A stretch of 64,000 bases of DNA. Origin: Escherichia phage vB_EcoM_VR25. This document shows, piece by piece, positions 11,052-57,329 of the stretch; positions within the stretch are counted from its first letter, which is position 1; each line of letters begins with the position of its first letter. The notes under the pieces are model-generated. The model did no database searches. It worked only from the letters and a program-made list of their open reading frames with translations, and was not told the origin of the DNA. Location of the stretch: the sequence record NC_028925.1. One strand, given 5' to 3'. The position numbers and the translations under genes were made by a program.

Positions 11052-11666
11052 TTAATTCAAAACAGTTAAATGCCAAACAGTATACAGGTTATTCAATGGG
11101 TGTGTCTCAATTAAATCTACGCGAAGCGTAGTCCCAGCGGGAAACATAAACTCATCCTCATCATTAACCAGGTGTAAGTTTGACTTCCTGGTTGCTTCTG
11201 GATATGCACCATTGAACTCTTCAGGAGGAGCACCGCAAATCATTTTAAAGATTGCTTCCTGATAGTTATACGCATAAGGTGCATTGTTTATGCAGAAAAT
11301 ATTCCTTGTACCATAGAAGCTATATGATGCGAAATTTCTTGCAACCTGCCAGTCCCTGGAAAAACTCATCACACGATTAAACTCAATTGTTGCACCAACA
11401 TATCTTAAATCTTCCAGGTGTTCCATGGTTTTCTTTGATATACCACGGAACAATGCTGCAGGCGGTGCATTGTTCAGATTGTTGCGGATAATCCTGGTTA
11501 AGTCTTCTTGAATCAGGTCGGGTTTATTTTCCATACACTGCCAGAGTACTGATTGCTCATTATCTGTATAAAGAGCATCAATCTCTGCTTGACATTGGTC
11601 ACGAAAAGACTCACTAGAAGCGGCCGTATCAATAATTCCATTCAAAACGTCATCAGTGTACAGCAT
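11052..11666 (-). CDS. modA: ADP-ribosyltransferase (ModA/ModB family), about 204 aa
   Basis: R-S-E signature read in ALFRG ... SFSRDW ... EDEFMFP; start set at an internal ATG after the conserved leader; modA versus modB assignment is positional only. Confidence 0.6.
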   Translation of the reverse strand: MLYTDDVLNGIIDTAASSESFRDQCQAEIDALYTDNEQSVLWQCMENKPDLIQEDLTRIIRNNLNNAPPAALFRGISKKTMEHLEDLRYVGATIEFNRVMSFSRDWQVARNFASYSFYGTRNIFCINNAPYAYNYQEAIFKMICGAPPEEFNGAYPEATRKSNLHLVNDEDEFMFPAGTTLRVDLIETHPLNNLYTVWHLTVLN

Positions 11667-11694
11667 TTTATTATCCTCATCAGTAGTTGATAAA

Positions 11695-11728
11695 AACATC
11701 TTAACGTGTCTTATTGTTCTTGTACACA
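11695..11728 (-). promoter_or_regulatory. early-type promoter (-35 GTGTACA) with CAACTACTGATGAGGA leader
   Basis: Read from the minus strand upstream of the 11052-11666 start. Confidence 0.45.
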
Positions 11729-12271
11729 GTCAAGAACATAATAATCACCAACAAATCCAGCATCAACTATCACGAATTTCTGGTCAACTGGAACAAACCA
11801 TTCAAGCTCAGAATCAATCATGTCCATGTATTCTTCGCGCCTTAACGTTGCTTCCTGTTTGGAACCAGAGGCAGTATTGAAGAATTTCAGTGGAACATCA
11901 AGCGCGAGCTTACGCATCGCATCATGATAACAAAAAGCCTCGGTCTGATTTAATCTGACAATAGTCCTTGTCACATATTCCATTGCAGCAAAATCCCTGG
12001 CAATGCCATAGTCTTCTGTAAAGGAAGTTATTCTTCCAAATTCAAAAGGTTGCATTGATTCTTTTGCTTCATCTAACAAATCAATCTCTTGCTGGGTAAC
12101 CCCACGATACAAGACTGTATCAGGTACAGATAGCCTTGACTTGATGATTGAGTTGACGTTTGAATGCAAGGTTTTGTCAACCTTTGATGTGCGACATTCA
12201 AACAATGAAGCTATCTCCATTTCGCTAAATTTTAACTGGTTGGGTTCTGTATCAGATTTGATGATGTTCAT
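11711..12271 (-). CDS. modB: ADP-ribosyltransferase (ModA/ModB family), 186 aa
   Basis: LYRGV ... TSFTED ... acidic E-x-E region; paralog of the adjacent gene; assignment positional. Confidence 0.55.
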   Translation of the reverse strand: MNIIKSDTEPNQLKFSEMEIASLFECRTSKVDKTLHSNVNSIIKSRLSVPDTVLYRGVTQQEIDLLDEAKESMQPFEFGRITSFTEDYGIARDFAAMEYVTRTIVRLNQTEAFCYHDAMRKLALDVPLKFFNTASGSKQEATLRREEYMDMIDSELEWFVPVDQKFVIVDAGFVGDYYVLDCVQEQ

Positions 12272-18330: not shown

Positions 18331-18624
18331 TTATTCACCTGTAACTTCTTTGACGATGTTTTCATTTTCAAAGTTAGGGTCACAATACAACACGTAATTA
18401 TACTGCATAACCCCACCAGATGCCAACTGGTCAGATACTTCTTTGACCTTGTTTGGTTGGTCACGTTTAGTGATGTTCATGATGTCCGCATAAATCTGGT
18501 GCTCAACTGCTTCCTGGTCAGCGGTCATTGACCACTCGCATAAGTCTTTATCATAACCAGCGGTAACTGGAGCTGCATGACATGAAGCGAGGACTAAGAT
18601 TGCTGCGATAGATAACTTTTTCAT
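18331..18624 (-). CDS. sp: Spackle periplasmic protein (Sp), 97 aa
   Basis: Signal peptide plus GYDKDLCEWSMTADQ ... GGVMQYNYVLYCD, matching T4 Sp by recall. Confidence 0.9.
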   Translation of the reverse strand: MKKLSIAAILVLASCHAAPVTAGYDKDLCEWSMTADQEAVEHQIYADIMNITKRDQPNKVKEVSDQLASGGVMQYNYVLYCDPNFENENIVKEVTGE

Positions 18625-18645
18625 TTGAATCTCCTTAGTAGTTGA

Positions 18646-18682
18646 TGGGATAATATTAAATCATTATTATCCCGTTGTACAC
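18646..18682 (-). promoter_or_regulatory. early-type promoter (-35 GTGTACA) with ATCCCATCAACTACT leader upstream of sp
   Basis: Read from the minus strand; conserved leader and AGGAG before the ATG. Confidence 0.45.
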
Positions 18683-18684
18683 AC

Positions 18685-18981
18685 TTATTTTACTTTAGCG
18701 TAATCTAAAGTCACTAACTGCGGTTCCATTGCCAATTGACGTTGACGACGGAGGACTGATGCACGGACATACACGCGAAATGCCTTTTTGCATTGGCGAA
18801 TCTGACGCTTAGTTGGGCGAACATCAAATTCATAGAATTCCACAAAGTCCATTTGTCCCTTGGTTTGTTGAGAAATAATAAGTTCCCAACGACTATTTAC
18901 GCGGTCTGCATAAAACTTGTGCTTACCAAAAGACTTGTCCCAAAAACCACTTTTTACGGGTTTCATAATTTGAATAATCAT
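18685..18981 (-). CDS. small basic protein with RPTKRQIRQCKKAFR motif, 98 aa
   Basis: Paralog of 17308-17529. Confidence 0.5.
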   Translation of the reverse strand: MIIQIMKPVKSGFWDKSFGKHKFYADRVNSRWELIISQQTKGQMDFVEFYEFDVRPTKRQIRQCKKAFRVYVRASVLRRQRQLAMEPQLVTLDYAKVK

Positions 18982-52403: not shown

Positions 52404-52679
52404 TTATAATCTTTTAAACTTGAAACAATATATTGCAAATAAATCAGAAAAATGTCTATCAACCCATATTCTTTGCACTGGGCTAGTAACAGTCAGCATA
52501 TAATGTGCTTTTTGTAAATTTATTCCATTTTTATTCGGGCATTCTTTATTAACAGAATGGTACGTGCTTGCTACTATTTCAATTTCCCTTTCATATCTCT
52601 CGCTATCTGTTTGTGTGGGGATAAATGCAATTCCAGCAATAACAAAAATAGAGATATACGTCCAAATCTTATATATCAT
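52404..52679 (-). CDS. membrane-anchored periplasmic protein, 91 aa (position of T4 rI / rI.1)
   Basis: N-terminal signal-anchor helix; immediately next to tk; identity positional only. Confidence 0.4.
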   Translation of the reverse strand: MIYKIWTYISIFVIAGIAFIPTQTDSERYEREIEIVASTYHSVNKECPNKNGINLQKAHYMLTVTSPVQRIWVDRHFSDLFAIYCFKFKRL

Positions 52680-52686
52680 AAGGACC

Positions 52687-53259
52687 TCAGCTTGTCAATT
52701 CGAGCCAATGTTTCCTGCATAAAGATACGTACGATTCATTCCCACCGACTAACACTTGCTCGCCGTCCTTTACAGCAGCACCGTCGATTACTCGAGCGGT
52801 CATGGTTGCTTTCCGGCCGCAATGGCAGACGCCCTTTAATTCAACCAGTTTATCCGAAATAGCCAGAAGTCTGGCTGAACCGGGAAATAACTGACCCCGA
52901 AAATCTGTTCTTAGCCCGTAACACATAACGGGGATATTGTAATTATCAACCACTCGTGCTAACTGGTCAATTTGCTCTGGTAACAAAAATTGAGCTTCAT
53001 CAACCAGGACACAATGGATATCCTTTTGAGACTCGGCCCATTTATAGAATTCAAACAGGTTCATGTCGGCCGTTACCAGGTTTGCTTCCTGGCTAATACC
53101 AATACGTGATTTAATTTCAGATTCCGAGTCCCGATTATCAATAACAGGTTTTAGCAAAAGCACACTCATTCCACGCTCTTTATAGGAATAAGCTGCAGTC
53201 AGCAATGAAGCTGTTTTGCCTGCATTCATTGCTGCGTAATGATAAATTAAACTCGCCAT
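52687..53259 (-). CDS. tk: thymidine kinase, 190 aa
   Basis: P-loop NAGKT plus C-terminal Zn-ribbon CHCG ... C..H; matches T4 Tk. Confidence 0.9.
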   Translation of the reverse strand: MASLIYHYAAMNAGKTASLLTAAYSYKERGMSVLLLKPVIDNRDSESEIKSRIGISQEANLVTADMNLFEFYKWAESQKDIHCVLVDEAQFLLPEQIDQLARVVDNYNIPVMCYGLRTDFRGQLFPGSARLLAISDKLVELKGVCHCGRKATMTARVIDGAAVKDGEQVLVGGNESYVSLCRKHWLELTS

Positions 53260-53268
53260 ATCACCTTC

Positions 53269-53454
53269 TTATTCTGTAATACTTTCCAGATAATTTTCTA
53301 AATCGTCTGAAGCCTTATTAAGGGCTTCTAGCGCTTTATAATAGTCTTCACGGGAGTAATATTCTGTATGAAGTTCTTCGTCGTATTCGCTTTTAGCATC
53401 AACAACAGTTTCAATCATATCCAGAATTTTATTTTTCTGTTCTTTAGTAATCAT
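53269..53454 (-). CDS. hypothetical acidic protein, 61 aa
   Basis: ORF in the array. Confidence 0.4.
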   Translation of the reverse strand: MITKEQKNKILDMIETVVDAKSEYDEELHTEYYSREDYYKALEALNKASDDLENYLESITE

Positions 53455-53462
53455 AATATACC

Positions 53463-53666
53463 TTAAAGAGTATTCACATAAGCAATAAGCTCGTTTTCTT
53501 TCTTATCAAACTGTTCGGCGATTTTTTCGTAATCTTCAGCGCTCACAGGACCCCATTCATCGTATGATTGCATTCCAGAATTCTCTTCTAGAAGCTCATG
53601 GATAAGCTCAAACAATCTACTTTTCTGACTAATACTTAAACTCATAACCATTGCACCTTTAAACAA
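53463..53666 (-). CDS. hypothetical acidic protein, 67 aa
   Basis: ORF in the array. Confidence 0.4.
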   Translation of the reverse strand: MFKGAMVMSLSISQKSRLFELIHELLEENSGMQSYDEWGPVSAEDYEKIAEQFDKKENELIAYVNTL

Positions 53667-53860
53667 TATTCATCTACGTGTTGGACACGTTTGTTTTTGT
53701 CAATAAAAGTATATTCAACATACTCGCCGATATACCACTTATCTACGTTGTGAGGACTTTTTATAGGACACTTGGTTATCCGTGTTTCGGACCAGTGTCG
53801 AATAATTGTAGCTTTGTTTTTAGGGTCAAATGGGTGTGGATAATGTGCTTTCATAATCAA
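53642..53860 (-). CDS. hypothetical protein, 72 aa
   Basis: ORF overlapping both neighbours by 25-35 nt. Confidence 0.35.
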   Translation of the reverse strand: MIMKAHYPHPFDPKNKATIIRHWSETRITKCPIKSPHNVDKWYIGEYVEYTFIDKNKRVQHVDEYCLKVQWL

Positions 53861-54305
53861 CTACCACCAAATCAATATCAGGAGTAAACATATCAATTAA
53901 CCGGGAAACCTTATCCCAATCACCACCTGCAATACCACAGCCAATCCTGGGAATATAAATCACAGGCTTGAACAAAAGGGATTCTGCTTGTCGATTTAAT
54001 TCTATCATGCAATTTACTAAAGCGCCATAATCCAGATTTGGACCCGGTTCATACTGGGTATAAAGGTTATAGCACATACCAAATCCAGTTGGCTTATGTT
54101 TAAAAACGATAGACATATCACCGAGTTTTTCTCGGGAACCGTATTCAGTTGATGTTTTATCCATTTCTAAAATTTTTGGGTAAGCCTTTGCCAGTTGGCC
54201 AGCAACGCCTGACCCCATTGTATGGAAACAATTACAGCCATGAGCTATGATGTTTCCTTCAAGAAAGAGGGCGACAATATCGCCCTTAATATAGTTAACA
54301 ATCAT
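53826..54305 (-). CDS. macrodomain protein (ADP-ribose binding/hydrolase fold), 159 aa
   Basis: N-terminal GDIV ... HGCNCFHTMGSGVAGQ and C-terminal PRIGCGIAGGDWDKV resemble the two glycine-rich macrodomain loops. Confidence 0.55.
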   Translation of the reverse strand: MIVNYIKGDIVALFLEGNIIAHGCNCFHTMGSGVAGQLAKAYPKILEMDKTSTEYGSREKLGDMSIVFKHKPTGFGMCYNLYTQYEPGPNLDYGALVNCMIELNRQAESLLFKPVIYIPRIGCGIAGGDWDKVSRLIDMFTPDIDLVVVDYESTLSTPI

Positions 54306-54661
54306 TTAGAGTTCAATCCTCTGTTATAGGAATCGACTAACCTGTCAACCATACTGGTGCAGGCCGCTTTATATTTGGCACTCGACAGAATACAATCCAT
54401 TTCAAATAGTTTCTTTTCATATTTGTTGGATAAAATACTCTTTTTCATAAGAGTGTGTTCAACATCATTTTGACCGTCTTTATATGCAGCAGTGAGTTTG
54501 GCACTGAACTGGATTACACAATCCACATTGCTTGATGCGCAATAATCTTTGGCCGTCCTCGTTGCATATTCTATGATGCTATTATTATCATCGCTCTGTA
54601 CTGAAGCTATTCCTCCCGTGCTGAATACTAACCCTATGGCTAAAGTTATGACTCTTACCAT
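54302..54661 (-). CDS. secreted protein, 119 aa
   Basis: N-terminal signal peptide; several Cys in the mature region. Confidence 0.45.
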   Translation of the reverse strand: MVRVITLAIGLVFSTGGIASVQSDDNNSIIEYATRTAKDYCASSNVDCVIQFSAKLTAAYKDGQNDVEHTLMKKSILSNKYEKKLFEMDCILSSAKYKAACTSMVDRLVDSYNRGLNSK

Positions 54662-55204
54662 TTAATCCACCGTTTTTAATAGGCCTCGTGATTTTAAGTA
54701 GTTAGCTTTTTCTAGGACTTGCGAAGCATACGTGTTTCCAGCTTTCACATTCCACCCTGCGTTATATGATGATAGTGTTTTTCTTATGTCCCCCTTGTGA
54801 ATGTTTAACCAGTATGAAAACTCAATATAAGCCCAGCGTGCACTGTTCTCTCTCTTGCTTATCATCTTGATTATTTCTTTATCTGTCATTGTCCACCCAA
54901 CCTGTTTTACGCGCTCGCGCACGGTTGGAAGATAATTTTGGAATATACCATATGCATGATGCTTATCTTTATTTAATCCTGTATTAACACCAGCAGATGA
55001 TTCCTGCCAGGTTAAACCAGCCATGATATATCCCAAACCATTATGTTGGTGCGGATTTTCTTTGTACTTACCATTTTTCTGGAACTGTTCTCCAAACGCA
55101 TAAGCATATTGGAGGTTCTCCATTTGTTCATTACTGAAAGTAGGCTCTACGCTATGGGCAGACATACTAACTGTCAATAGTAAAGTGGCTATTACTTTTT
55201 TCAT
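54662..55204 (-). CDS. secreted lytic transglycosylase (SLT-domain), 180 aa
   Basis: Signal peptide plus SLT motifs WQESS, AYGIFQ and SYNAGWN. Confidence 0.6.
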   Translation of the reverse strand: MKKVIATLLLTVSMSAHSVEPTFSNEQMENLQYAYAFGEQFQKNGKYKENPHQHNGLGYIMAGLTWQESSAGVNTGLNKDKHHAYGIFQNYLPTVRERVKQVGWTMTDKEIIKMISKRENSARWAYIEFSYWLNIHKGDIRKTLSSYNAGWNVKAGNTYASQVLEKANYLKSRGLLKTVD

Positions 55205-55214
55205 GAATTCCCCA

Positions 55215-55673
55215 TTAGATATAAATCACTTTTGTGCTAATTTTTCCTTCCAGACGATTAGAGTTAACAAACGCCATACGACAACACATGGTTGGAGACT
55301 TCCCAGGAAGAGCTGGGTTAACTGTCATTCCTAACCATAAGTTCTTGTCTGTGATTTCCAGACGAAGTGGACGGTAGTTCACATTCGGGTCAATTTGTGC
55401 TTCAACTTCCGGGAGTGGTTTCATCTCCAGGAATTCAACAATTTCTTTTACATGTGGTGTGATTTTTCCAAACAAGTCAAAAACATATTGTTCGTCAATT
55501 TCACGTTGGATTGCACGGTCCAACAGGTGTGGACTGTACTTAATGAAGAATGCTTCAAGGCCTGCTTCTTTACAAGCCTTGTTGATAGCATTATTAATTT
55601 TGAGGAACTCCGTTTCAAAAATACGACGAAGTTTATTGCGGCGAATGTAAACACTTGAATCGATAGTAGTCAT
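55215..55673 (-). CDS. regB: RegB site-specific endoribonuclease, about 152 aa
   Basis: Sequence matches T4 RegB by recall (IRRNKLRR.FE.EF ... YSPHLLDRAIQREIDE ... RPLRLEITD.NLWLG); start at the internal ATG after the promoter and leader. Confidence 0.9.
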   Translation of the reverse strand: MTTIDSSVYIRRNKLRRIFETEFLKINNAINKACKEAGLEAFFIKYSPHLLDRAIQREIDEQYVFDLFGKITPHVKEIVEFLEMKPLPEVEAQIDPNVNYRPLRLEITDKNLWLGMTVNPALPGKSPTMCCRMAFVNSNRLEGKISTKVIYI

Positions 55674-55698
55674 GATTATCTCCTTTTGTTTGATGGGA

Positions 55699-55730
55699 TA
55701 ATCATAACTCATTTCAACCTGCTTGTACAC
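55699..55730 (-). promoter_or_regulatory. early-type promoter (-35 GTGTACA, -10 TATGAT) with ATCCCATCAAAC leader upstream of regB
   Basis: Read on the minus strand. Confidence 0.45.
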
Positions 55731-56035
55731 TATTCTTTAAAACGAATTAGCTTATTTAATGACTGTGAGACTTCAGCACGAACAGCGTGTAAATTCTTAA
55801 GCTGTTCAAGGCGTTGCTCGTAGTAAGCAATTTCATCTTCTTCAAGACAGTCGTTTGAATCTTCTTTAAGATAGTTCCCGTAGTCCTGAAAGGCCTTACG
55901 AATAACTTCCTGGAAATCATCTAGACTTTGAATTTTTGGCTGTTTCGATGTGAATCCAAACGGATTGGAATCATTTATGCGGCGTTGAGAAGCGGTTGAT
56001 AACTCATAACCAAAACCAGAATTAATCTGCGCCAT
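55730..56035 (-). CDS. hypothetical protein, about 101 aa
   Basis: Start at a TAATG overlap with the upstream gene. Confidence 0.45.
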
Positions 56036-56298
56036 TAGTATTTTTCCTCGGGTCGAAATACTGCACGACATGCCCACATGCTGGCTTCTTTTAGATGTTG
56101 CTTAGCATACTTAAGAGCCTGCACTGCATCCATATCTTCTTTGGTTTGTTGCTCTGTTTCATTTTCTTTCAAGATATATGCTTCTTCAATCAGAGCATCA
56201 AACATCAATCCAAGACGAACTTCTGCATCTTTAATAGCGTTCACTTTACCGATTTTATCGTCGGTATGTGGCTTGTAACCTTTGATATCTTCAATCAT
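56035..56298 (-). CDS. hypothetical protein, 87 aa
   Basis: ORF in the array. Confidence 0.45.
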
Positions 56299-56528
56299 TT
56301 CACTTCCTCGCCAGTTGCGATATCATATTCCACCAAACGAAGGCCGTCGGTCCAACCCTGAACGGAGATATAGGTAGTTGGGTAAACCAGTTCTTTACCG
56401 TTCCATTGACCGCCGTCCCAGACTTCCAGAAAGTCTTGTTCACCTGGACCATTAAACCATTCAACGAATCTTTTCAAGGCTGCATCAGAGCCTTCAATCG
56501 TCAGTTTAGACATATTTTTTCCAGTCAC
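56295..56528 (-). CDS. hypothetical protein, 77 aa
   Basis: ATGA-coupled ORF. Confidence 0.45.
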   Translation of the reverse strand: MTGKNMSKLTIEGSDAALKRFVEWFNGPGEQDFLEVWDGGQWNGKELVYPTTYISVQGWTDGLRLVEYDIATGEEVK

Positions 56529-56802
56529 TAATTAATCGCACATCCTGGTCATACGTCAGGAGGCTACGAGTTATAATACCCTTACATGGTCCAGAAATAA
56601 ATTCCAGAGTAAAGTAAGGAACCAACTTCATCAAGCGAATACTCGGAGCAGTGCAACGAAATCTGGACCCAATAAAAGGTCCAGACAAAAACACATACTC
56701 AAAGAAATTTGCTTTATTAAAGATTTCAAAATTCTTTACGAAATCTTCAGACCTAACCTTTGGAATAAAATAGATTTGGTCAAAAAGCTCTTCATGAGTC
56801 AT
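56506..56802 (-). CDS. hypothetical protein, 98 aa
   Basis: ORF in the array. Confidence 0.45.
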   Translation of the reverse strand: MTHEELFDQIYFIPKVRSEDFVKNFEIFNKANFFEYVFLSGPFIGSRFRCTAPSIRLMKLVPYFTLEFISGPCKGIITRSLLTYDQDVRLISDWKKYV

Positions 56803-57329
56803 TATTGCATTCCTATCACAAAGAATAACGGCAAAGGCTTATCACCTTGACACATAAATTTATTCATCATTACCTGATAAGCTTCATAGAACTTATCCAT
56901 TGCAGGGAGGCGAATAGGTTCTTCAATAATGATTAAAAGACGCGTAAAACGCAATCCACGGTACTTATGGAAATTATCTTCATCAAGGAAACTGCGTACA
57001 GTATCATAGACAACGAATCCAGGTCGTTCAACTTGAAGATGTGGTTGTGCCTTAGAAACCCGCTTTATTATATCACAGATTTCTCGGGAGCGATGTGAAG
57101 AACTCGACATAACAATCACATCATTACCCTTGGAAACCCAATCCGCAGCGAACTGTGCAAGGGCACTTGTTTTACCTGTTTGACGACCACCATCAAGTCG
57201 AAGAGTACCAAACTCTTGCATTCTTGAAGCAGGTTCATACCAGGTGTATTGGTCTGAATCTAAGCGTTCAATGGCGCGTTCAGCGAAGGCGTGCATTAAG
57301 GTTAGATAAATTGGAGTTAAAAATTTCAT
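56802..57329 (-). CDS. small P-loop NTPase-like protein, 175 aa
   Basis: Walker A-like GGRQTGKTS and Walker B-like LLIIIEEP. Confidence 0.5.
   Translation of the reverse strand: MKFLTPIYLTLMHAFAERAIERLDSDQYTWYEPASRMQEFGTLRLDGGRQTGKTSALAQFAADWVSKGNDVIVMSSSSHRSREICDIIKRVSKAQPHLQVERPGFVVYDTVRSFLDEDNFHKYRGLRFTRLLIIIEEPIRLPAMDKFYEAYQVMMNKFMCQGDKPLPLFFVIGMQ

What the first reader, a model, noticed from the sequence alone, without database searches (positions are those of the whole stretch)
53826..54305. Macrodomain protein in a phage that also carries two ADP-ribosyltransferases
The 159-aa protein has GDIV ... HGCNCFHTMGSGVAGQ and PRIGCGIAGGDWDKV, which resemble the two glycine-rich ADP-ribose-binding loops of macrodomains. 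Macrodomains remove or bind ADP-ribose, so this could counter host ADP-ribosylation defenses such as DarT, degrade ADP-ribose-derived signals, or reverse the phage's own ModA/ModB-type modifications. It lies in the tk-regB block next to secreted proteins.
Basis: partly seen in the sequence, partly recalled or inferred. Interest (0 to 1): 0.65.

Follow-up and report, generated by a model that had tools for sequence, protein, structure and literature searches.

The report
Phage Tk.4/AdfM macrodomain, anti-DarT2 factor
This gene is the ordinary, widely conserved tk.4 macrodomain of T4-like phages; its T4 counterpart (AdfM) was recently shown genetically to protect the phage from the bacterial DarTG2 defence, which blocks phage replication by attaching ADP-ribose to DNA.

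Summary

The window comes from a vB_EcoM_VR7/VR26-like coliphage (Gaprivervirus). The protein is 100% identical to the VR26 copy. It is 59% identical to T4 Tk.4 over the full length, with the same gene order (tk, tk.3, tk.4, vs, vs.1, regB).

A 2025 preprint named T4 Tk.4 AdfM: deleting it makes T4 sensitive to DarTG2. I found no support for its link to the phage's own ModA/ModB enzymes or for a role against Thoeris signals.

One detail is missing from both AdfM papers held in the searched library. The family has an invariant Gln84 where DarG and TARG1 have their catalytic lysine, and Ala126 where TARG1 has Asp125. This matches Streptomyces SCO6735, a biochemically proven hydrolase of thymidine-linked ADP-ribose on DNA that needs its Gln85 and Asn27.

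The protein is therefore not a captured DarG. It most likely works like SCO6735.

Verdict: already known, low interest.

The parts
53826..54305 (-). tk.4 / adfM orthologue: a 159-aa single-domain macrodomain protein
54195..54242 (-). Residues 22-37, HGCNCFHTMGSGVAGQ: first ADP-ribose-binding loop. H22, G23 and N25 align with SCO6735 His24, Val25 and Asn27.
   Evidence: H22, G23, N25 and C26 are present in all 119 ungapped sequences of the 121 aligned (the window protein plus 120 listed homologues). Alignment A4 places N25 on SCO6735 Asn27 and DarG Asn22. The SCO6735 N27S mutant is nearly inactive (PMC9411070).
54054..54068 (-). Residues 80-84, NLYTQ. Invariant Gln84 sits at the position of the catalytic lysine of TARG1 (K84), DarG (K80) and PhiKZ-type AdfM (K78).
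   Evidence: Q84 is present in 121/121 phage/metagenome sequences and in 61/61 bacterial relatives. Alignments agree on the position. SCO6735 and BT1257 also have Gln there, and SCO6735 Q85A is dead (PMC9411070).
53907..53951 (-). Residues 119-133, PRIGCGIAGGDWDKV: second, glycine-rich diphosphate-binding loop. Ala126 sits where TARG1 has catalytic Asp125.
   Evidence: HMMER alignments to TARG1 pair 'PRIGCGLDRLQW' with 'PRIGCGIAGGDW'. P119, G122, G124 and W130 are invariant in alignment A2. The motif is identical in type to SCO6735/BT1257 'PRIGCGLAGG'.
54302..54661 (-). vs (valyl-tRNA synthetase modifier), the upstream gene in the same co-directional gene string. Its TGA stop overlaps the tk.4 ATG (ATGA).
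   Evidence: PHROG 1256 E=1e-32. Coordinates. The overlap is read from the sequence. Same gene order in VR7 and T4.
53642..53854 (-). tk.3 (DUF7202), the downstream gene. Its ATG at 53854 overlaps the last 29 nt of tk.4.
   Evidence: Pfam PF23832 E=1.7e-36, matching residues 3-72 of the ORF. VR7 annotates tk.3 as 213 nt, overlapping tk.4.
11052..12271 (-). Context only: two adjacent ModA/ModB-like ADP-ribosyltransferase ORFs (11052-11699 and 11711-12271).
   Evidence: Both hit PHROG 832, 'RNA polymerase ADP-ribosylase' (E=1e-38 and 2e-28). VR7 annotates modA and modB at the equivalent place. No evidence links them functionally to tk.4.

Best explanation
The gene is the orthologue of T4 tk.4 (adfM) in a VR7/VR26-like T4-type coliphage. 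It encodes a free-standing macrodomain of the TARG1/ALC1-like class.

Most likely mechanism: when a host DarT2 toxin ADP-ribosylates thymidines in single-stranded phage DNA, the enzyme binds the ADP-ribose in the cleft formed by its two glycine-rich loops and hydrolyses the thymidine-ribose bond. This restores replicable DNA and lets the phage escape DarTG2.

The chemistry is probably that of Streptomyces SCO6735 rather than that of DarG or TARG1. There is no lysine nucleophile. Instead an invariant Gln84, held in place by invariant Asn25, would position the distal ribose, and a water molecule held by backbone atoms would do the hydrolysis.

What is shown here: the fold, the orthology, and the active-site residue pattern. 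What is shown by others: the T4 knockout phenotype on DarTG2, and the SCO6735 biochemistry. What is inferred: that this particular protein, and T4 Tk.4 itself, hydrolyse thymidine-linked ADP-ribose on DNA, and that they do so by the Gln-type mechanism.
For: Fold and family:
- Pfam Macro above its cut-off.
- AF2 model with pLDDT 94.3.
- Foldseek top hits are TARG1, BT1257, Poa1p and DarG, all with probability 1.0.

Orthology:
- 59% identity and no gaps over 155 aa with T4 Tk.4.
- Identical gene order tk, tk.2, tk.3, tk.4, vs, vs.1, regB in VR7 and T4.

Function of the orthologue:
- tk.4 was the single significant hit of a T4 transposon library on a DarTG2 host, and a clean knockout is DarTG2-sensitive (preprint 10.1101/2025.11.20.689424).
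- T4 lacking both adfA and adfN stays DarTG2-resistant, which predicted a further factor (PMC11825919).

Active site:
- Gln84 is invariant in 121/121 and 61/61 sequences, and Asn25 in 119/119.
- Gln84 aligns with SCO6735 Gln85, TARG1 K84 and DarG K80, and Asn25 with SCO6735 Asn27.
- SCO6735 removes thymidine-linked ADP-ribose from ssDNA faster than DarG or TARG1, rescues E. coli from DarT, and is killed by Q85A and nearly killed by N27S (PMC9411070).
Against: - No biochemistry exists for Tk.4 of T4 or of this phage. The preprint only says enzymatic removal 'seems likely'.
- The protein lacks two features reported to help SCO6735 act on DNA. It has Ser32 (Ala in most relatives) where SCO6735 has Lys34. 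It also lacks the 5-6-residue longer 'mobile loop' carrying Lys89/Lys93: 10 residues here against 15-16.
- The T4 evidence comes from one preprint and one DarTG2 system, with knockout assays run at 30 °C or 37 °C.
- At 59% identity, function in this phage is assumed rather than tested. T4 also differs in the second loop (GAGIGKGNW against GCGIAGGDW).
- SCO6735 and TARG1 also act on Glu/Asp-linked protein ADP-ribose and on uracil-linked RNA ADP-ribose, so DNA need not be the only substrate.
Confidence: 0.75

Rival explanations
1. It processes a small ADP-ribose metabolite, as the database label 'phosphatase' implies. The candidates are ADP-ribose-1''-phosphate phosphatase activity (like yeast Poa1p) and O-acetyl-ADP-ribose deacetylase activity.
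Against: These labels are inherited from domain names and were not tested. The only phenotype known for the orthologue is DarTG2 sensitivity. By my own knowledge, the T4 RNA-repair pathway does not make 2'-phosphate junctions that would yield Appr-1''-p. NCBIfam O-acetyl-ADP-ribose deacetylase models score 17.6 bits against a cut-off of 291.
Confidence: 0.08
2. It reverses protein ADP-ribosylation. The target would be either the phage's own Alt/ModA/ModB marks on host proteins (a writer/eraser pair) or marks placed on phage proteins by host transferases.
For: ModA/ModB-like genes are in the same genome. SCO6735 and TARG1 also hydrolyse Glu/Asp-linked protein ADP-ribose. An arginine-specific macrodomain, MavL, exists in another clade (reference list seen).
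Against: The family is far more widespread than Mod-type transferases and occurs in Pseudomonas, Vibrio, Acinetobacter and Aeromonas phages, genera that are not among the ten commonest for ModA-like hits. Bacterial relatives sit next to housekeeping genes. T4 ARTs are arginine-specific (my own knowledge), and no TARG1-class enzyme has been shown to cleave Arg-ADPr. In the T4 screen, tk.4 was reported as a hit only under DarTG2.
Confidence: 0.05
3. It acts without hydrolysis, or on signalling molecules. Either it sequesters or degrades ADP-ribose-derived immune signals (gcADPR, His-ADPR of type II Thoeris), or it blocks DarT2 by binding it or its product.
Against: The Gln/Asn pair that is essential for catalysis in SCO6735 is invariant here. 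The DarT-binding C-terminal domain of DarG is absent: the protein has 159 aa, and the match covers only positions 2-147 of the 338-position DarG model. No data connect Tk.4 to Thoeris.
Confidence: 0.05

Closest known systems
T4 Tk.4 = AdfM (anti-DarT factor Macrodomain; bioRxiv 10.1101/2025.11.20.689424)
   Same: Orthologue: 59% identity over the full length, the same size (155 against 159 aa), and the same position between tk.3 and vs. It shares the invariant H22/N25/Q84 pattern.
   Different: The second loop differs: T4 has GAGIGKGNW and the window has the family consensus GCGIAGGDW. The host phage is of another genus (Gaprivervirus, not Tequatrovirus). Function has not been tested in this phage.
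Streptomyces coelicolor SCO6735 (PDB 5E3B) and Bacteroides BT1257 (2FG1/2AFC): Gln-type ALC1-like macrodomains
   Different: Only 25-27% identity. The window protein lacks the 5-6-residue longer mobile loop with Lys89/Lys93 that the authors say characterises that subclass. It has Ser/Ala where SCO6735 has Lys34.
DarG antitoxin macrodomain (T. aquaticus 5M31/5M3E, M. tuberculosis 5M3I)
   Different: Catalytic Lys80 is replaced by Gln. There is no C-terminal DarT-binding domain and no adjacent darT. NCBIfam DarG scores 30.7 bits against a cut-off of 250. It is the weakest of the TARG1-class sequence matches (2.9e-11).
Chimallivirus AdfM (PhiKZ gp104; PMC13309987)
   Same: A phage-encoded free-standing macrodomain that defeats DarTG2. 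It carries the same name, AdfM.
   Different: A different clade: DarG2-like, with Lys78 retained ('FPTKDNW' in the PhiKZ-like phage U5 copy), and imported into the phage nucleus. Its biochemistry has been shown. DarG-like tblastn hits occur in 291 phage records against 2780 for the Tk.4 type.
Human TARG1/OARD1 (4J5S)
   Same: Top Foldseek match (E=9.5e-11, TM 0.72-0.82). It has the same short loop after the catalytic position, the MGAGIA-type first loop and PRIGCG. It also removes thymidine-linked ADP-ribose.
   Different: The Lys84/Asp125 dyad is replaced here by Gln84/Ala126.
Yeast Poa1p (6LFQ), ADP-ribose-1''-phosphate phosphatase
   Different: It is a small-molecule phosphatase. Sequence similarity is good only in the N-terminal half. 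This is the source of the uninformative 'phosphatase' label.

Membership tests
Macro domain superfamily (Pfam PF01661) | Profile score above the curated gathering threshold | tested here: met
   35 bits against a cut-off of 22, covering positions 2-117 of the 118-position model.
Macro domain superfamily (Pfam PF01661) | Three-layer alpha/beta macrodomain fold | tested here: met
T4 Tk.4 / AdfM orthologous group | Full-length sequence similarity to T4 Tk.4 | tested here: met
   59% identity, 155 aa, no gaps, E=2e-71. PHROG 335 E=1e-70.
T4 Tk.4 / AdfM orthologous group | Conserved position between tk.3 and vs in the tk-regB early region | tested here: met
   Gene order is identical in the window, VR7 and T4.
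T4 Tk.4 / AdfM orthologous group | Needed for phage growth on DarTG2 hosts | not testable with these tools
   Shown only for T4 (preprint). It needs a knockout of this phage.
DarG antitoxin (NCBIfam NF048014) | Score above the equivalog cut-off | tested here: not met
   30.7 bits against 250. PADLOC DarG gives 29.7 bits.
DarG antitoxin (NCBIfam NF048014) | Catalytic lysine (Lys80) | tested here: not met
   Gln84 aligns with Lys80 of both solved DarGs. Gln is invariant in the family.
DarG antitoxin (NCBIfam NF048014) | C-terminal DarT-binding domain and an adjacent darT gene | tested here: not met
   The protein has 159 aa and matches only positions 2-147 of the 338-position model. Its neighbours are vs and tk.3.
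TARG1-type hydrolases | Lys84/Asp125 catalytic dyad | tested here: not met
   Gln84 and Ala126 occupy those positions.
SCO6735/BT1257 subclass of ALC1-like macrodomains (PMC9411070) | Gln at the lysine position and the Asn that locks it in place | tested here: met
   Q84 aligns with Gln85 and N25 with Asn27. Both are invariant.
SCO6735/BT1257 subclass of ALC1-like macrodomains (PMC9411070) | Mobile loop about five residues longer than in DarG/TARG1, carrying Lys89/Lys93 | tested here: not met
   The Q84-to-Y93 segment is 10 residues, as in TARG1 and DarG. It is 15 in SCO6735 and 16 in BT1257. Bacterial relatives of Tk.4 mostly have 13.
SCO6735/BT1257 subclass of ALC1-like macrodomains (PMC9411070) | Hydrolysis of thymidine-linked ADP-ribose on ssDNA | not testable with these tools
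   Requires an enzyme assay.

The most novel reading that the evidence does not exclude
Tk.4-type macrodomains (HGCNC...NLYTQ motif, short loop) may form a third mechanistic subgroup of the TARG1-like class. They are found in about 5% of sequenced phage genomes and in hundreds of bacterial species, where they sit next to housekeeping genes rather than toxins. Their substrate range may go beyond DarT2-modified DNA, for example to uracil-ADP-ribosylated RNA or to ADP-ribose-based immune signals. If so, one small enzyme would be a broad-spectrum counter-defence, and the bacterial copies would be a general nucleic-acid de-ADP-ribosylation repair function.
Probability: 0.15. Interest if true: 0.55.

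Novelty: already known. Interest (0 to 1): 0.2.

Why it matters
The finding itself matters little. The gene is a conserved T4-family gene that has long carried an 'A1pp' (macrodomain) motif note in the T4 record, the identical protein is already in GenBank, and the orthologue's anti-DarTG2 role was reported in 2025.

The one useful addition is mechanistic. Two unrelated clades of phage macrodomains now share the name AdfM. The T4-type clade lacks the lysine on which DarG catalysis depends and instead carries the Gln/Asn pair of SCO6735. This bears on mutant design (Q84 and N25, not a lysine), on annotation ('phosphatase' is misleading), and on the idea that phages captured DarG. For this clade the evidence points to a separate, widespread bacterial macrodomain family as the source.

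Tried and rejected
- NCBIfam and PADLOC DarG models give only weak sub-threshold hits, so I rejected filing it as DarG.
- ICP1 AdfB was checked as a possible phage macrodomain. It is a direct DarT binder, not a macrodomain.
- The promoter/terminator scan of 52500-57000 found 15 promoter-like and 5 terminator-like sites. Shuffles gave 13.3±3.7 and 3.1±1.6, so nothing can be said about expression signals.
- I looked for DarT next to bacterial relatives. The immediate neighbours of about 62 loci are heterogeneous housekeeping genes, and no toxin family recurs. My gene calling was crude (no macrodomain ORF was called at 17 of 80 loci), only nearest neighbours were scanned, and only the 25 commonest families are listed. 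Rare DarT associations cannot be excluded.
I reran it without that sequence.
- The model's coordinates are not exposed to scripts, so I could not dock ADP-ribose, measure the Gln84-Asn25 geometry or compute surface charge.
- I could not recover the full Poa1p sequence, so the Poa1p residue equivalent to Gln84 is undetermined.
- A Thoeris preprint was checked for phage macrodomains. It only concerns the macrodomain of host ThsA.

Full report
**1. Observation**

It lies at 53826..54305 on the minus strand, starts with ATG and encodes 159 aa. It contains GDIV, HGCNCFHTMGSGVAGQ and PRIGCGIAGGDWDKV.

Its ATG overlaps the TGA stop of the upstream gene vs (ATGA). Its last 29 nt overlap the start of tk.3. 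It therefore sits inside a tightly packed, co-directional string of genes: regB, vs.1, vs, tk.4, tk.3, two small DUF7438 genes, then tk.

**2. Identity of the window and the gene**

Megablast places the region in Escherichia phages vB_EcoM_VR7 and VR26 at 99% nucleotide identity (genus Gaprivervirus, Tevenvirinae). The protein is 100% identical to the VR26 copy.

VR7 annotates the gene as tk.4. RefSeq calls it 'phosphatase', and other records call it 'macro domain protein' or 'hypothetical'. T4 has the same gene in the same place, with a note 'contains A1pp phosphatase motif'. The two proteins are 59% identical over 155 aa without gaps.

**3. Is it a macrodomain?**

Yes.
- Pfam Macro scores 35 bits against a gathering score of 22.
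- PHROG 335 gives 1e-70.
- Sequence searches of the PDB find BT1257, Poa1p, SCO6735, DarG and TARG1. With a 57-sequence family profile the E-values are 3.5e-20, 3.3e-15, 7.8e-16, 2.9e-11 and 3.6e-17 respectively.
- AlphaFold2 with that alignment gives pLDDT 94.3 and pTM 0.89.
- Foldseek puts TARG1 first (E=9.5e-11, TM 0.72-0.82).

The protein therefore belongs to the TARG1/ALC1-like class.

**4. What is already known about the orthologue**

A November 2025 preprint (10.1101/2025.11.20.689424) reports three things. tk.4 was the single significant hit when a T4 transposon library was grown on a DarTG2 host. A clean knockout sensitises T4 to DarTG2. The protein resembles the M. tuberculosis DarG macrodomain.

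The authors named it AdfM and wrote that enzymatic removal of ADP-ribose from DNA 'seems likely'. An earlier paper had shown that T4 lacking adfA and adfN remains DarTG2-resistant and predicted a further factor (PMC11825919).

A large 2022 survey found macro domains in 41% of myoviruses (PMC9503650).

**5. The active site is not DarG-like**

I verified the sequences of M. tuberculosis and T. aquaticus DarG, TARG1, BT1257 and SCO6735 from the PDB alignments. I then aligned them with the window protein, T4 Tk.4 and family members.

- The catalytic lysine of TARG1 (K84, 'LITKK') and DarG (K80, 'FPTKK') aligns with Gln84 ('NLYTQ').
- TARG1 Asp125 aligns with Ala126.
- Gln84 is present in 121 of 121 aligned sequences (the window protein plus 120 listed homologues), and Asn25 in all 119 that are ungapped there.
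- Gln84 is also present in 61 of 61 bacterial relatives, which were collected with patterns that did not include that residue.
- BT1257 and SCO6735 also have Gln at this position.

The literature explains the pattern (PMC9411070). SCO6735 lacks the TARG1 and DarG catalytic residues, yet it removes thymidine-linked ADP-ribose from ssDNA faster than either. It rescues E. coli from DarT and does not touch guanine-linked ADP-ribose. Q85A abolishes its activity and N27S nearly does. The authors propose a water-mediated mechanism that depends on backbone atoms.

In the window protein, H22-G23-C24-N25 correspond to SCO6735 H24-V25-C26-N27. The most economical reading is that Tk.4-type proteins work like SCO6735.

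**6. Differences from SCO6735**

The window protein and T4 Tk.4 lack the 5-6-residue longer 'mobile loop' with Lys89/Lys93 that the authors consider characteristic of the SCO6735/BT1257 subclass. The segment from Q84 to Y93 is 10 residues, as in TARG1 and DarG, against 15-16 in SCO6735 and BT1257. Bacterial relatives of Tk.4 mostly have 13.

Lys34 of SCO6735, which is also Lys in DarG, is Ser here and Ala in most relatives. The family is therefore a mosaic: a Gln-type catalytic centre, with a TARG1-like first loop and loop length. I do not file it as a member of the SCO6735 subclass, and it fails every DarG-specific test (see the membership table).

**7. Two different 'AdfM' proteins**

A 2026 Cell Reports paper (PMC13309987) independently named the PhiKZ gp104 macrodomain AdfM. 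That protein is DarG2-like. It keeps the lysine (K78), as confirmed in the PhiKZ-like phage U5 copy, 'FPTKDNW'. It was shown biochemically to remove DarT2 marks.

DarG-like tblastn hits occur in 291 phage records, mostly jumbo phages. The Tk.4 type occurs in 2780. The two clades share a name and a target but not an active site. Neither paper held in the library mentions the Gln/Lys difference or SCO6735.

**8. Origin and context**

A scan of one genome per bacterial species found at least 501 loci encoding relatives at 33-43% identity. They occur in Rhodobacteraceae, Desulfobacterales, Verrucomicrobia, Hyphomicrobiaceae and others.

Their nearest neighbours are heterogeneous and mostly housekeeping:
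- rpoC in six Ruegeria loci
- class I aminoacyl-tRNA synthetases in four
- EamA transporters in five
- NAMPT in two
- NADAR in two

No toxin family recurs. This resembles orphan SCO6735 rather than a toxin-antitoxin module, and it argues against the phage gene being a captured DarG. The analysis is crude: the gene calling is home-made, only nearest neighbours were scanned, and the family lists are truncated.

**9.

ModA/ModB-like genes are indeed in the window, at 11052-11699 and 11711-12271 (PHROG 832; VR7 annotation). ModA-like transferases occur in 1011 phage records, and the ten commonest organism names are all enterobacterial. The macrodomain occurs in 2780 records, including Pseudomonas, Vibrio, Acinetobacter and Aeromonas phages. 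There is no coupling.

T4 transferases modify arginine (my own knowledge), a linkage not known to be cleaved by TARG1-class enzymes. Arginine-specific macrodomains of another clade do exist (MavL, cited).

Nothing links Tk.4 to Thoeris signals.

The 'secreted neighbours' remark is descriptively right. Vs and Vs.1 start with signal-peptide-like segments, and so does T4 Vs. This has no evident bearing on the macrodomain.

**10. Verdict**

My best explanation, with confidence about 0.75, is a free-standing Gln-type macrodomain hydrolase that strips DarT2-installed ADP-ribose from thymidines of phage ssDNA.

- Shown here: fold, orthology and residue pattern.
- Shown by others: the T4 knockout phenotype and the SCO6735 chemistry.
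- Inferred: the enzymatic activity and mechanism of this protein.

Interest is low (0.2). The residual value lies in the mechanistic distinction from DarG-type AdfM and in correcting the 'phosphatase' label.

Noticed in passing
window 54302-54661 (-) and 54662-55204 (-); L002:5387-5734 (-): Vs, annotated 'valyl-tRNA synthetase modifier' (a cytoplasmic role), begins with a signal-peptide-like segment (MVRVITLAIGLVFSTGGIASVQS). T4 Vs does too (MTKILVLCIGLISFSASASA). Vs.1 (MKKVIATLLLTVSMSAHS) has no Pfam hit but is labelled an SLT-domain protein in one phage record. An exported-looking N-terminus on an aminoacyl-tRNA-synthetase modifier is odd.
   Followed up: partly
window 53269-53454 (-) and 53463-53666 (-): Two tandem small paralogues of DUF7438 (PF24219; 61 and 67 aa) lie between tk and tk.3, like tk.1/tk.2 of T4. 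VR7 has only one. This accounts for the 94% rather than 100% coverage against VR7/VR26.
   Followed up: partly
literature (PMC13309987 versus bioRxiv 10.1101/2025.11.20.689424); L004:592-1080 (+): The name AdfM has been given independently to two non-orthologous phage macrodomains. T4 Tk.4 is Gln-type. PhiKZ gp104 is Lys-type, DarG2-like and imported into the phage nucleus.
   Followed up: yes
loci L005-L084 (for example L015, L017, L019, L043, L047, L059 from Ruegeria): Bacterial relatives of the Tk.4-type macrodomain are widespread (at least 501 species-level loci) and sit beside housekeeping genes. In six Ruegeria genomes the gene lies directly downstream of rpoC. Two loci have a NADAR gene and two a NAMPT gene as neighbour. 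No recurrent DarT-like partner was seen.
   Followed up: partly
window 54268-54286 (-): An 8-bp GC-rich hairpin followed by a T-rich run (AGGGCGATATTGTCGCCCT CTTTCTTGAA) lies inside codons 7-13 of tk.4. The region's count of terminator-like sites is not above the shuffled controls, so this is probably chance.
   Followed up: no
window, at the position equivalent to VR7 record 18433-18792 (gene 61.2): VR7 annotates a gene 61.2. According to my working notes, 61.2 is the gene named AdfA (anti-DarT1) in RB69/T4, but none of the passages I read states this, and I did not inspect the window copy. AdfN (gp30.3) lies outside the window. If the AdfA assignment is right, T4-like phages stack several anti-DarT factors, and this window would carry at least two.
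   Followed up: no
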